DNA of 64,000 nucleotides, from the NCBI RefSeq assembly GCF_054482525.1, contig NZ_CM137006.1; one strand, written 5' to 3'. How positions within the stretch are numbered: position 1 is the first letter of the stretch; each line of letters begins with the position of its first letter. Positions 22,201 through 25,200 of this stretch are shown here, in pieces. The position numbers are program-made.

Positions 22201-25200
22201 TTAAACGTAGTCGAGCGTTTGGCGTAATAAGGGCCCATACAGCAGCAATAACGCCCAATATGGTAAGTAGACTTGATGTATCAATTTTGGTTGGCGGTGT
22301 CATAATTTCTCTTGTAATCATTGTTTGATGTACATCGGAATGGTTTCAAATGATAAGGCTCTGTGTATGATAAATCAGAACGTTATGCACGTTTAAGAAT
22401 ACCCTCAAAATGGCACATTTTAATCTAAAAATGGCATTAAATGGACACTACTTGTCCACACAAGTTTTTTTTCAGTCGGCTTTTCCCGACTAACGTTTGG
22501 GGTGTCCTATTGAAACTACGCTCCTTATAAAAGCAATACTGTAGCTGTATGTTTATCAAAGGGGTTGTGCTAACCAAATTACTGAAGCCTAAGGTCCGCT
22601 CTTGGCACAAAGCAGACTATGAGAAGAGAGATGCTATAACATTTGAGTCCTACCAATCGATCTGTTCATTTCTATGAATGGCAGTAAATGCAAATAACCA
22701 GAACAACCAAACGTTTTTCGACTTATACTCGATGTTGCAAAGAGTGGGGTGTGAAAAGCAAGCGTGCGAACGGAAGTAGATGGCAATTCATTGCATTACT
22801 TCAGAAAAACTTTTTCAGGAAACGAGCTAAGGGCGTCAACCAATGCCCTGTAGCATAAGCTCAGGCACCGGATGCCGTTTTACAGGCTTCACCTGCCATC
22901 CAGAAGATGTCCCGACCAACGACTGCAACCATAATTACGTTGACCTGAACCGTCATGCAGCTTCGTTTCATTTTTCACGAGATAACGGGCTCTCTCCAGG
23001 GCTTTCTGCATCGCTTCCACATCACCACGCTTGATCCAGAGAACAGCGGCTTCACCCGGCTTTTTGTCTGAAGCCTTCCAGGTATCAGGACATCCACCCG
23101 ACAAAGGCGTGTCATCGGAAGAAGGGCGAGCATCAGACGATGCTGGTTTACGGGAAGGCGTCCACCTGGAAAAATGGACCAGGCCATCGCCTTGCCAGGG
23201 CTCAAGATGCAGGGCGCTGCACCATGCCTCCTGGATCATCGTCGCCAGCGAAGACGATTCGCTGAAATCCCCGATCGAGCACCAGGTATCTTTGTTGAGC
23301 AGTAATATCACGTGATAATGTTTCCTGCCTTTTTCCTTGCCGAACTCCCGACACCAGAAATAACGCAGGCTGGTTGCATGCACACGCTGATTGGCACATC
23401 TTTTTTTCCGCTGGTAAGCCTGGATTTTGGCTTTCAGGGATTCGAAAAAACGAGAAATCACCGCTGAATCTAAATCGGTATCCATGATGGTGGCAGGCAT
23501 ATACTCAGGAAACCGTAAATCCACCCGGATTAACGAGACGGCACGGTGCTGCGCCAGGGCACTGTCGAGAAGGCTGTCAAAACGGGATAACCAGTAAGCA
23601 TTGTGTATTGGTTGGTTCATGATGAGAGAACTCCGTTGATTTGGATTGACTTCACATCATTCATCACCGCGGTAAAACTTTACCGCATCCCGCTATTTAG
23701 CAACATAACCTGCTCCTGACTGCAGCGAAATAAACCATCCCGGAACGAAAAGAAGAGCCTGCACGCAGAGGGAAAACACGCAACAACATGAACGAATTTA
23801 AAAACAATACGGTTAAAGAGAAAAACCTGAAGGGAAACAAATCCACAGGACATTCAAACAAAACACCAAAAACGCAATCAGAACGCTTTCTGGCGCTGTA
23901 AATCAACAACAACACCAAAACCTACAGCTTAACCATATAACTCAATCACAAATGCGAAATGGCACGCTTAAAACCTGGTTACAGATATCCCGCCACAAGA
24001 ACAAAAACCACCAATATCAGAATCGATGTTCTTATCCTGAAAACGTTACGTTTCACTCCGCGCCATAAAAACGATTAACCATCGATAACGTAAACCTCAT
24101 CTGAATCAAAACACCAGAACCAATCATCACGTTTTTTCTGAAAAGAGTCTCATGATGAAGAGAATTACCTTGCGCTGATAAAAAACACCAGGGCCAGTTA
24201 ATCATCTCATCAATCTCATCGTTACAAAAACATCCATAAAACCATTTAACCAAATCGTCGTAAGCACACAGTAAATCACGCCAGGCCACCTCAATCGGAT
24301 TTGCGTTTTTACATAAAGACACTTGTTTCAGATTAACGATCTAAAACACGAAAACTCAGAAAAGGTTAAACGTAACTTCAGCAAAATAGAATGCCATCTT
24401 GATTGCTTAAACAGGAAAGATTGTTTTGTGGCAGCATTAAACTGATTTTAATTTTCGTAAACACAGGAGTAACAATTTTACCAAACTGGATGTGTATCAG
24501 ACAAAGCAATGTGTATTGTAATGTTTAATGAAAACACTTTTAGAAGTGTTTATGAAAATACGTGTATGTTTAGTAAAACACTTAGTAAAATACGTATATA
24601 GTACCATTCCCGACATTCTCAACATCTTCAGACATCCATGCAGACTGAGTGTTGATTTCAGTTTTTCACGGCCAGCATGGATCTTTACTGGTCAAAAAAC
24701 AGACATGTTTACTCTGGAATTATTTTTCTGATTCCGTCTTCAGAACAACAAAAACTCGTGATAACTCTACAACAAACTATCGTAATTGGCTTCTGTAACC
24801 CCGTCACTTTTCCTAAGAAACGTGCCCCCATATGATGCGGGAGAGATAAGTCATCGTATACAGGAAACACTGCCAATCATAATATGACGTCATTCAGTAA
24901 TTTTTATCCATAATCAGATTAGCATATCATGATTATTGAATATTATGATATATAACCCATATGAATATGTTATTATCTGTAAGCGTTAAGCATCACATTG
25001 CATAACCATACTAAGCTGGCTAATCATCAGCATTTTTTACATGTAAATCATTGAAATTAATTATATGTTTTTTGTGGATAATTAATATGTAATGTGAAAT
25101 TAATATTTTTACATCATGAGCGCCATTTAAAATCACCATCCTGAATATCATATGACAATATATTTTCACTAAAGCATGAATTGTATATGTCTATTAACTC

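What the first reader, a model, noticed from the sequence alone, without database searches (positions are those of the whole stretch)
23621..25113. 1.5-kb gene-poor stretch with strand-skewed A+C-rich sequence and repeated AAAACACCA motifs upstream of a Gp2-type replication-initiator-like gene
No ORF longer than 89 codons occurs here. The plus strand is strongly A/C-rich and carries at least five spaced copies of an A(4-5)CACC(A) motif (about 23866, 23908, 24000, 24107, 24181), plus a palindrome aaacacttttagaagtgttt near 24527-24546 and a second cluster of AAAACAC-containing repeats around 24530-24595. The region lies directly upstream of the YfjJ/YagK-like gene (inovirus Gp2-type family). Iteron-like repeats beside a replication-initiator-like gene could be a vestigial origin or a regulatory array; it could equally host an unannotated small RNA.
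Basis: seen in the sequence. Interest (0 to 1): 0.4.

Follow-up and report, generated by a model that had tools for sequence, protein, structure and literature searches.

The report
Repeat-bearing non-coding spacer beside Rep-like gene
This is a real, gene-free stretch of an E. coli genomic island beside a Rep-like nuclease gene, and it carries short repeated DNA motifs that look like protein-binding sites, but nothing yet shows what binds them or whether they still work.

Summary
Window 23621-25113 has no conserved ORF. Positions 23700-24400 are A+C-rich on the + strand. AAAACAC occurs 7 times on that strand against about 0.7 expected (family-wise P about 0.001). A cluster of 12-13-bp direct repeats lies at 24440-24600.

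The first ~1.1 kb (23621 to about 24740) is a backbone segment. It is found next to the same Gp2/YfjJ gene in about 1,876 of 5,426 complete E. coli genomes. The rest belongs to the neighbouring cargo cassette.

It is not coding. Reading frames break differently among alleles, there is no codon periodicity, and no intact homologue turned up among 5.8 billion proteins. It is not a detectable structured RNA: no Rfam hit, fold z-scores near zero, and no conserved pairing.

It evolves faster than the four-fold degenerate sites of gp2, and the repeat copy number varies between alleles.

Gp2 has the HUH and Tyr motifs, and its model matches the fold of Rep nickase and origin-binding domains.

Best guess (0.4): the repeats are binding sites for an island protein, most likely Gp2, making this an ori- or oriT-like site, possibly vestigial. 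The main rivals are an operator array for a regulator (0.25) and neutral filler (0.25). Interest is modest.

The parts
22889..23620 (-). Gp2/YfjJ-family gene (243 aa), an HUH Rep-like nuclease and the gene this region lies upstream of
23621..23795 (.). gp2-proximal leader block. The first ~80 nt are nearly invariant. It is the only part kept by all alleles, including those with unrelated DNA beyond it.
   Evidence: Conservation 0.92-1.00 over 23621-23700 in 55 alleles, partly forced by the search pattern. Homology breakpoints fall at query positions 144 and 175. gp2 is intact in 4 of 5 alleles that keep only this block.
23669..23686 (.). Palindrome GCGGTAAA-AC-TTTACCGC, 49-66 nt upstream of the gp2 ATG. 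It could be an operator or a 5' hairpin.
   Evidence: Read from the sequence. The same leader block, with GCGGTAA-N4-TTACCG, lies upstream of a second backbone gene (191 aa) in L001.
23700..24400 (+). A+C-rich, G-poor spacer carrying scattered same-strand AAAACAC(C) sites at 23773, 23860, 24108, 24182 and 24343
   Evidence: Composition. Motif statistics. Of the five sites in this spacer, 23773, 23860 and 24108 are kept in 71-87% of 55 alleles and 24182 and 24343 in 36-38%. In some alleles positions 176-474 are replaced by a cassette with a 176-aa gene.
24061..24128 (.). Best-conserved internal block (CCATAAAAACGATTAACCATCGATAACGTAAACCTCATCTGAATCAAAACACCAGAACCAATCATCAC)
   Evidence: The 20-nt bins covering 24061-24120 score 0.95-0.98 column conservation in 55 alleles, falling to 0.83 in the next bin. 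Cassette-bearing alleles keep it from 24095 onward.
24440..24600 (+). Variable-number direct-repeat array. Units of the form TTWAKKAAAAYAC lie at 24525-24537, 24549-24561, 24569-24581 and 24582-24593. There is a related CGTAAACAC at 24456-24464 and an imperfectly conserved palindrome at 24532-24551.
   Evidence: Regex positions. The segment is 151-250 nt long in 32 distinct alleles, with 0-5 core copies per allele (3-4 in most), and other units such as ACGTAAAGATTTACTAA occur 1-3 times. A divergent clade (L025/L049) still has 5-6 TAATGRAAA units.
24597..24617 (+). Conserved element TATAGTA(C/T)CAT(T/A)(C)CCGACATT that closes the array. It contains a -10-like TATAGT hexamer.
   Evidence: Present in 49 of 83 alleles as C[CT]GACATT after the array. 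It matches Providencia 16/21 without gaps, by my own estimate P about 0.01, but nhmmer does not find it significant. In Providencia the scan calls a promoter-like site there that points away from gp2.
24726..24744 (.). Right-hand boundary of the conserved backbone segment. Beyond it the sequence follows the neighbouring cargo gene.
   Evidence: Most alleles lose homology at query positions 1104-1124. Conservation drops to 0.62 after 24741.
24745..25113 (.). Allele-specific AT-rich tail (25-39% GC) linked to the 407-aa cargo gene. It has terminator-like hairpins at 24825-24843 (minus) and 25015-25031 (plus) and a perfect DnaA box TTATCCACA at 25073-25081.
   Evidence: Only genomes with the same 407-aa gene cover query 1-1493. 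Scans. ssDNA folding is unremarkable.

Best explanation
Window 23621 to about 24740 is a non-coding backbone segment of an AlpA/Gp2-type genomic island of E. coli. Positions 24745-25113 belong to the adjacent cargo cassette. The segment has three parts: the gp2 leader, a fast-evolving A+C-rich spacer with same-strand AAAACAC(C) sites, and a variable-number array of 12-13-bp direct repeats that ends in TATAGTAYCAT..CCGACATT.

I propose that the repeated sites bind an island-encoded DNA-binding protein. The most likely candidate is the adjacent HUH Rep-like Gp2. That would make the segment the island's cis-acting site for Gp2-dependent nicking, serving replication of the excised island or its transfer (ori- or oriT-like). 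In many copies it is probably under weak constraint or vestigial.

Shown: the segment is non-coding; the motif is enriched and strand-specific; repeat copy number varies; the segment is linked to gp2 in about a third of complete E. coli genomes; Gp2 has the HUH/Tyr motifs and a Rep-like fold.

Inferred: that any protein binds the repeats, that this protein is Gp2, and that nicking or replication follows.
For: Non-coding.

No RNA signal.

AAAACAC occurs 7 times against 0.7 expected, family-wise P about 0.001, and only on one strand in all 55 alleles. These are the only such clusters in the 64-kb window.

The array has 12-13-bp units spaced 24, 20 and 12-13 bp apart, with 0-5 core copies per allele. 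Its repeat structure survives in a clade whose array sequence is 30% diverged.

Independent recurrence: the pre-specified AAAACAC is enriched on the same strand upstream of a 39%-identical gp2 in Providencia (3 against 0.23 expected, P=0.001). Other direct-repeat arrays lie upstream of gp2 in Jinshanibacter (5 units of 36/21 bp) and Brenneria.

Gp2 is Rep-like.

HUH initiators such as RepB of pMV158 bind arrays of short direct repeats, including a site distant from the nick (PMC1851628, PMC9943647).

In E. coli, cargo genes insert between the array and the GTPase operon, so the array stays linked to gp2.
Against: The segment diverges faster (0.146) than gp2 four-fold degenerate sites (0.086), so there is no sign of overall purifying selection.

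Gp2 amino-acid divergence does not track array divergence (r=0.03). L025/L049 have an ordinary Gp2 but a very different array.

Six of ten distant gp2 lineages have no array or only a trivial repeat upstream, and eight of nine lack AAAACAC.

gp2 is intact in 4 of 5 alleles that have lost everything beyond the first ~175 nt.

No conserved hairpin or nick-site candidate was found. The 24532-24551 palindrome decays on one arm without compensation.

In E. coli the array lies about 900 bp from gp2.

gp2 itself is weakly constrained (positions 1+2 at 0.050 against four-fold sites at 0.086) and is often truncated in databases.

No replication or transfer of these islands is documented in the papers I could search.
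Confidence: 0.4

Rival explanations
1. Transcriptional control region. The repeats are operators or activator sites for an island regulator, for example the YfjR-like HTH_11-WYL protein at 27525-28205. They would sit at a promoter in the ancestral divergent intergenic region between the gp2-alpA operon and the GTPase-antirestriction-RadC operon.
For: In distant relatives the same spot is a short (340-750 bp) divergent intergenic region between gp2 and the GTPase/DUF932/antirestriction operon.

AAAACAC enrichment occurs only in the two lineages (E. coli, Providencia) where a YfjR-like gene was seen. The N-terminal HTH regions of these two proteins look about 80% identical by eye (ERT[LI]QRDFHQRL), against 40% over the whole protein.

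A -10-like TATAGT/TATATT follows the array, and in Providencia the scan calls a promoter-like site there pointing towards the GTPase gene.
Against: The co-occurrence rests on two lineages.

In E. coli, opposite-strand cargo genes separate the array from the GTPase operon.

The YfjR-like gene has its own upstream inverted repeats (CGACAGGATGTGTCG at 27334-27348 and GCGACACATCC at 27449-27459), conserved in Providencia. These look like a more conventional operator.

The AlpA HTH is conserved in all lineages, yet the motif is not.

Promoter-like hits are no more frequent than in shuffles.
Confidence: 0.25
2. Functionless filler. The region would be horizontally acquired, AT-rich, probably H-NS-silenced DNA left between backbone and cargo. 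Its repeats would arise by slippage and duplication, and its motif excess would be a relic of low-complexity ancestry.
For: Divergence exceeds that of synonymous sites.

Indels, cassette insertions and copy-number changes are abundant.

The region is dispensable for keeping an intact gp2.

Arrays are absent in most distant lineages.

The rare-variant substitution spectrum is roughly strand-symmetric, so nothing obviously maintains the skew.
Against: AAAACAC recurs independently on the same strand in Providencia.

The motif is strictly on one strand in all 55 alleles, and 4 of 7 sites rank at the 85th-91st percentile of 7-mer conservation.

Repeat structure is retained in the diverged L025/L049 array.

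A 1.1-kb gene-free block is kept, without collapse, in about 1,300-1,900 genomes.
Confidence: 0.25
3. A non-coding RNA or long leader. Either a C/A-rich + strand transcript acts as a sponge or Rho-loading site, or a long G/U-rich 5' leader of gp2 carries attenuators.
For: The A/C-rich, G-poor + strand would give an unstructured RNA with many A-rich repeats.

On the gp2-sense strand a weak hairpin followed by a U-tract lies at about 23868-23890, with the U-tract running down to about 23855. The scan calls it terminator-like in allele L009.

There is a promoter-like hit on the minus strand at 24504-24475.
Against: Rfam gives no hit.

Fold z-scores are -0.1 to -1.0.

Consensus folds of 24 diverse alleles are essentially empty, at 0 to -5.6 kcal/mol per 120 nt.

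The minus-strand promoter-like site lies in an insertion present in only about 40% of alleles.

No expression data are available.
Confidence: 0.05
4. A decayed protein-coding gene that can no longer be recognised.
For: Stop-free runs of 74-95 codons occur on the minus strand. In some genomes PGAP calls an 82-aa + strand ORF.
Against: Frames differ between alleles.

Variability by codon position is flat: 0.107/0.088/0.088 and 0.116/0.102/0.123.

A search of 5.8 billion proteins returns only 55-122-aa fragments of the same locus with no Pfam domain.
Confidence: 0.05

Closest known systems
Double-strand origin of rolling-circle plasmids such as pMV158 (RepB, with nic and bind loci)
   Different: No nick hairpin or nick sequence could be identified here. 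The repeats lie about 900 bp from the gene, with a 700-bp skewed spacer between. The element is chromosomal and integrated. Binding and replication are untested. Repeats and Gp2 do not co-vary.
ori and crr of satellite phage P4 (octamer repeats bound by the alpha protein); this comparison is from my own memory and was not checked against a paper
   Same: P4 is a satellite-type element of E. coli of the kind the K-12 'CP4' cryptic prophages are named after. It has many copies of a short motif scattered over a few hundred bp at two separate cis sites needed for replication.
   Different: The P4 initiator is a primase-helicase, not an HUH nuclease. The motif sequence differs. No second site was looked for outside the window, and the window itself holds no other AAAACAC cluster.
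oriT with flanking relaxase gene and leading region in conjugative or mobilisable elements
   Same: A nuclease gene of the HUH superfamily faces, across a non-coding repeat-bearing region, an operon of antirestriction, DUF932, RadC/JAB and toxin-antitoxin genes. Plasmid leading regions are enriched in anti-defence genes of this general sort (PMC11541004).
   Different: Gp2 belongs to no recognised relaxase family. No nic-site similarity was tested. No ssDNA-promoter-like hairpins were found. Mobilisation of these islands is not documented in the papers searched.
tmRNA-linked Pseudomonas genomic islands I23/I44/I55 (IntY, AlpA, Gp2-like protein, RadC, defence cargo)
   Same: They share a core gene set, with Gp2-like protein, AlpA and RadC among the commonest genes of those elements, plus variable defence cargo. 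I55 is moved by a jumbo phage as a satellite (bioRxiv 10.1101/2024.08.29.610337).
   Different: The genus and integration site differ. That study does not describe a non-coding repeat region, and I did not examine those sequences.

Membership tests
Rep-dependent origin (RCR dso / iteron-bearing ori) | Adjacent initiator gene with HUH and catalytic Tyr motifs | tested here: met
Rep-dependent origin (RCR dso / iteron-bearing ori) | Array of short direct repeats near the initiator gene | tested here: met
   Four 12-13-bp units at 24525-24593 plus scattered AAAACAC sites, with variable copy number. However, the array is about 900 bp from gp2 and is absent in 6 of 10 distant lineages.
Rep-dependent origin (RCR dso / iteron-bearing ori) | Nick site presented in a conserved hairpin or inverted repeat | tested here: not met
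   ssDNA folds have z-scores of -0.1 to -0.8. No conserved pairing was found. One arm of the 24532-24551 palindrome decays without compensation.
Rep-dependent origin (RCR dso / iteron-bearing ori) | Repeats co-vary with their initiator | tested here: not met
   Gp2 amino-acid distance against array distance gives r=0.03 over 41 alleles.
Rep-dependent origin (RCR dso / iteron-bearing ori) | Initiator binds and nicks the site, and the site supports replication | not testable with these tools
   Needs EMSA or footprinting, nicking assays and measurements of island copy number.
Structured small or non-coding RNA | Match to a known RNA family | tested here: not met
   Rfam scan of 20000-30000 at E<=1 gave only a sub-threshold c4-a1b1 hit at 28206-28249, outside the region.
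Structured small or non-coding RNA | Folding more stable than expected, or conserved base pairs | tested here: not met
   Fold z-scores are -0.47 and -0.96. Alifold energies are 0 to -5.6 kcal/mol per 120-nt window on 24 diverse alleles.
Structured small or non-coding RNA | Defined promoter and terminator, and a detectable transcript | tested here: inconclusive
   Promoter- and terminator-like hits are no more frequent than in shuffles. No expression data could be obtained.
Protein-coding gene or recognisable pseudogene | Reading frame conserved among relatives, with third-position bias | tested here: not met
   Frames break at different places. Codon-position variability is flat.
Protein-coding gene or recognisable pseudogene | Homology to an intact protein elsewhere | tested here: not met
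   Only 27 short same-locus fragments were found among 5.8 billion proteins, none with a Pfam domain. Only the minus-strand ORF was searched this way.
oriT with leading region | Anti-defence 'leading-type' genes transcribed away from the site | tested here: met
   GTPase, WYL-HTH, DUF905, DUF932, antirestriction, JAB/RadC and CbtA/CbeA genes all lie on the + strand, reading away from the region. The same synteny holds in distant relatives.
oriT with leading region | Adjacent relaxase of a recognised MOB family and a nic site | not tested
   Gp2 is in the HUH superfamily but was not compared with relaxase families. No oriT library was available.
Intrinsically curved, H-NS-type AT-rich DNA | A-tracts phased with the DNA helix | tested here: not met
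   No periodicity peak exceeds the 95% level of shuffles. The best peak is at 22.75 bp, 0.77 against 0.86.

The most novel reading that the evidence does not exclude
The 1.1-kb segment is the origin of transfer, or of replication, for a very widespread family of E. coli and Enterobacterales defence and virulence islands. Gp2 would act as a Rep-like nickase or relaxase on the repeat array. The GTPase-antirestriction-DUF932-RadC operon would act as a leading region that enters a new host first. This would explain how these 'cryptic P4-like' islands, present in about a third of complete E. coli genomes, move.
Probability: 0.12. Interest if true: 0.7.

Novelty: new member of a known kind. Interest (0 to 1): 0.35.

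Why it matters
Islands with this backbone (Gp2, AlpA, YfjP-type GTPase, antirestriction, RadC, CbtA) carry virulence and anti-phage cargo. Here they are found in 1,876 of 5,426 complete E. coli genomes, yet how they replicate or move is unknown. If the repeat array is the site on which the Rep-like Gp2 acts, it would give a concrete and testable handle on their mobility. If it is only an operator array or filler, the finding is an annotation detail: a conserved, unannotated 1.1-kb intergenic block that should not be mistaken for a gene or an sRNA.

Tried and rejected
Structured RNA. The Rfam scan, single-sequence folds of both strands as RNA and ssDNA and sliding-window consensus folding of 24 diverse alleles all gave nothing.

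Decayed gene. I compared ORFs in 9 and then 55 alleles and searched the 95-codon minus-strand frame against 5.8 billion proteins. Only fragments turned up. Pfam, NCBIfam and PADLOC gave no hits for the cargo genes around the region.

Curved DNA. There is no A-tract phasing.

Mutational origin of the skew. The rare-variant spectrum is roughly strand-symmetric (C>T 0.369 against G>A 0.375). It neither explains nor clearly erodes the skew, and the counts are small.

Known sites. There is no IHF consensus, no Chi site, no 13-mer and only 2 GATC sites. One DnaA box lies in the cargo-linked tail.

A conserved 'TATAKTAC..CCGACAT' element across genera. It was suggestive by eye (16/21 against Providencia), but nhmmer finds nothing significant. 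A resemblance to the nonanucleotide nick sites of CRESS-virus Reps comes from memory only and is weak, so I dropped it.

Wider searches. Phage records gave no match, and plasmids gave 4 E. coli records only. Viral contigs gave no match. Genome contigs gave only 2 loci.

K-12. Neither CP4-6 nor CP4-57 carries the region, so K-12 data sets do not apply.

AlpA as the binder of AAAACAC. Its HTH is conserved in all lineages, while the motif is found in only two. The P. aeruginosa antiterminator AlpA is a larger, different protein with a GGGACG site (PMC9371919).

The AAAACAC pair at 18665/18683 is a duplicated IS1 end and is unrelated.
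Full report
**What the window is**

The finding lies in an E. coli genomic island. Identical copies of 23621-25113 occur in UPEC strains such as UPEC 26-1 and NCTC9022, next to the kps capsule genes, and RefSeq annotates nothing under them.

The region lies between two minus-strand genes. One is the Gp2/YfjJ-family gene at 22889-23620. The other is a 407-aa hypothetical gene at 25114-26337. To the right follows a + strand operon: a YfjP-type GTPase, a WYL/HTH_11 regulator, DUF905, DUF932, an antirestriction protein, a JAB/RadC protein and a CbtA/CbeA toxin-antitoxin pair.

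**Checking the observation**

- **Open reading frames.** No ORF exceeds 89 aa.
- **Skew.** The + strand is A+C-rich only over about 23700-24400 (A 285, C 175, T 140, G 101; AT skew up to +0.54, GC skew down to -0.44). Positions 24400-25113 are AT-rich without a marked skew.
- **Motif copies.** Exact AAAACACC(A) occurs at 23860, 24108 and 24182.
- **Motif statistics.** The common core AAAACAC occurs seven times, always on the + strand, against 0.7 expected from dinucleotide-preserving shuffles of the region itself. Allowing for the choice of motif, the chance that any 7-mer reaches seven non-overlapping copies is about 0.001. With overlapping counts, which poly-A dominates, it is 0.10. These are the only AAAACAC clusters in the 64-kb window.
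- **Palindrome.** AAACACTT-TTAG-AAGTGTTT is at 24532-24551.

The observation therefore stands, with small corrections of position and wording.

**How widespread it is and where its limits lie**

Part or all of the region is found in 1,876 of 5,426 complete E. coli genomes, nearly always on the chromosome. In all nine loci examined in detail it lies directly upstream of the same gp2 gene. It is absent from phage records and from K-12.

I collected 83 distinct alleles from E. coli genomes and 116 metagenome contigs. Most share query positions 1 to about 1106-1124 at 73-100% identity and then diverge. The conserved unit is therefore 23621 to about 24740. Positions 24745-25113 travel with the particular cargo gene on the right.

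Other breakpoints recur at positions 144 and 175. In one group of alleles, positions 176-474 are replaced by a cassette of about 1.1 kb with a 176-aa gene.

**It is not coding**

- Stop-free frames break at different places in different alleles. The 82-aa + strand ORF that PGAP calls in some genomes is interrupted in the window.
- Searching the longest minus-strand frame against 5.8 billion proteins returned only 55-122-aa fragments of this same locus. They are in shifting frames and have no Pfam domain.
- Variability is flat across codon positions for both candidate frames.

**It is not a detectable structured RNA**

- Rfam gives nothing in the region.
- Both strands fold no better than shuffles, as RNA or as single-stranded DNA (z-scores from -0.1 to -1.0).
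- Consensus folding of 24 diverse alleles gives essentially empty structures.
- A-tracts are not phased with the helix.

**How it evolves**

Among 41 loci with intact gp2, mean pairwise divergence is 0.146 in 23701-24726. In gp2 it is 0.086 at four-fold degenerate sites and 0.050 at codon positions 1 and 2. The segment as a whole is therefore not under detectable purifying selection, and it is rich in indels.

Within it, the best-conserved blocks are 23621-23700 (partly forced by my search pattern), 24061-24128 and 24361-24380.

Four of the seven AAAACAC sites are kept in 71-87% of alleles, which puts them at the 85th-91st percentile of all 7-mers. The number per allele ranges from 2 to 9, and none is ever on the other strand.

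**The repeat array**

Positions 24440-24600 hold direct repeats of the form TTWAKKAAAAYAC, at 24525, 24549, 24569 and 24582, spaced 24, 20 and 12-13 bp apart. The array is closed by TATAGTA(C/T)CAT..CCGACATT at 24597-24617.

Across 32 distinct versions the array segment is 151 to 250 nt long. It has 0-5 core copies per allele, and a neighbouring 17-mer occurs one to three times. A clade whose array is 30% diverged still has five or six TAATGRAAA units.

This is the most iteron-like part of the finding.

**The neighbouring gene**

- Gp2 matches Pfam YagK_YfjJ_C and REP_ORF2-G2P.
- An alignment with homologues down to 22% identity keeps the two histidines of KKHYHV and the tyrosine and lysine of Y-L-x-K.

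Calling Gp2 an HUH Rep-like nuclease is justified. Calling it a working replication initiator is not yet justified: it is weakly constrained, and many database copies are truncated.

**Distant relatives**

Homologues 37-43% identical occur in Providencia, Morganellaceae, Brenneria, Jinshanibacter and metagenomes. Most keep the layout [RadC, DUF932, antirestriction, GTPase] <- intergenic region -> gp2 -> AlpA -> variable defence cargo, which includes GmrSD, TIR, Cap4 nuclease, KAP/QatB and NACHT genes. A similar core gene set was reported for phage-mobilised Pseudomonas islands.

In these relatives the gp2-upstream region is 340-1,110 bp long. Their repeats vary:

- **Providencia** has three CTATGTGTTT units. 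The pre-specified AAAACAC is enriched on the same strand as in E. coli (3 against 0.23 expected, P=0.001), with the same G-poor skew.
- **Jinshanibacter** has five tandem units of 36/21 bp.
- **Brenneria** has four ACACATTTTA units in the opposite orientation.
- **Six other lineages** have no array or a trivial one.

Repeats at this position are therefore recurrent but not universal.

**Who might bind the repeats**

- **Gp2** is the natural candidate. HUH initiators bind arrays of short direct repeats (RepB: PMC1851628, PMC9943647). In E. coli the array also stays on the gp2 side of the cargo insertion point.
- **Against Gp2.** Its divergence does not track array divergence (r=0.03). gp2 stays intact in four of five alleles that lost everything beyond the first ~175 nt. 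No hairpin or nick-site candidate is conserved.
- **The YfjR-like WYL regulator** is an alternative. In the flanks I fetched, only E. coli and Providencia showed such a gene, and only these two have the motif. By eye their HTH regions are about 80% identical, against 40% over the whole protein.
- **Against the regulator.** That gene has its own conserved inverted repeats upstream (27334-27348 and 27449-27459). In E. coli, cargo genes also separate the array from its operon.
- **AlpA** is unlikely, because its HTH is conserved in every lineage, including those without the motif.

**Verdict**

The region is a real, unannotated, non-coding backbone segment with repeated motifs of the protein-binding type, evolving under weak constraint. 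My estimates are:

| Explanation | Confidence |
|---|---|
| Cis-acting site of the HUH Gp2 (ori- or oriT-like), possibly vestigial | 0.40 |
| Operator or promoter array | 0.25 |
| Neutral filler | 0.25 |
| Non-coding RNA | 0.05 |
| Decayed gene | 0.05 |

I found no description of this region in the searchable literature.

It is best filed as a new member of a known kind: repeat-bearing control or origin regions beside Rep-like genes. Interest is modest unless binding or nicking is demonstrated.

Noticed in passing
window 20138-21127 (+), with IS1 at 21161-21858 and an IS3-type transposase at 19142-20008: A 329-aa HD-domain protein hits the PADLOC dGTPase anti-phage defence model (2e-92). It lies among IS elements just downstream of gp2, where canonical islands have the 191-aa gene and alpA.
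   Followed up: partly
window 25073-25081 (minus strand): A perfect DnaA box TTATCCACA lies in a 25%-GC stretch just after the stop codon of the 407-aa gene. It is in the cargo-linked part, not in the conserved 1.1 kb.
   Followed up: no
L001 2530-2582, compared with window 23628-23686: The same leader block, including the GCGGTAA-N4-TTACCG palindrome, precedes a second backbone gene (191-aa hypothetical). In canonical islands this gene follows gp2 and precedes an AlpA-like gene. The two genes may share a control element.
   Followed up: partly
window 27334-27348 and 27449-27459: Inverted repeats CGACAGGATGTGTCG and GCGACACATCC lie in the 200-bp gap before the YfjR-like WYL/HTH gene. A similar ACAGGTTGTGTCG sits in the same gap in Providencia, and K-12 has GGACA-N5-TGTCC there. 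This is a likely operator of that regulator.
   Followed up: partly
L003 4176-5300, L021 and about 15 other alleles: In these alleles positions 176-474 of the intergenic region are replaced by a cassette of about 1.1 kb with a 176-aa + strand gene (WP_000778605.1). The gene has no Pfam or PADLOC hit.
   Followed up: partly
window 25114-26337 (minus strand); L006 4519-5649; L002 5709-7444: The slot between the conserved segment and the GTPase gene holds different orphan genes in different islands (407 aa; 376 aa; 262 + 316 aa). None has a Pfam or PADLOC hit. It looks like a cargo hotspot.
   Followed up: partly
L129-L137 downstream of alpA: In distant relatives the gp2-alpA pair is followed by varied defence genes: GmrSD, TIR, Cap4 nuclease, KAP NTPase/QatB and a NACHT-like giant protein. 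These islands are therefore defence carriers.
   Followed up: no
L001 2622-4214: A second, shorter YagK/YfjJ paralogue in the same island of UPEC 26-1 also has a gene-free upstream stretch of about 1 kb. That stretch is not homologous and has a purine-rich (A+G) patch rather than an A+C-rich one. This copy is absent from the window.
   Followed up: partly
window 22889-23620 and database homologues: gp2 looks weakly constrained (divergence 0.050 at codon positions 1+2 against 0.086 at four-fold sites). Many database copies are truncated (133-214 aa), and 8 of 49 loci have a disrupted reading frame (internal stops or no stop codon).
   Followed up: partly
window 28206-28249 (minus strand): A sub-threshold Rfam hit to c4-a1b1, the targets of the C4 antisense RNA of P1/P4-type phages (18.6 bits against a gathering score of 46.7, E=0.58). 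It is probably chance.
   Followed up: no
window 18660-18700: The IS1 end sequence ACATAAAACACTATCAGTA is tandemly duplicated. This accounts for two AAAACAC hits outside the region.
   Followed up: yes
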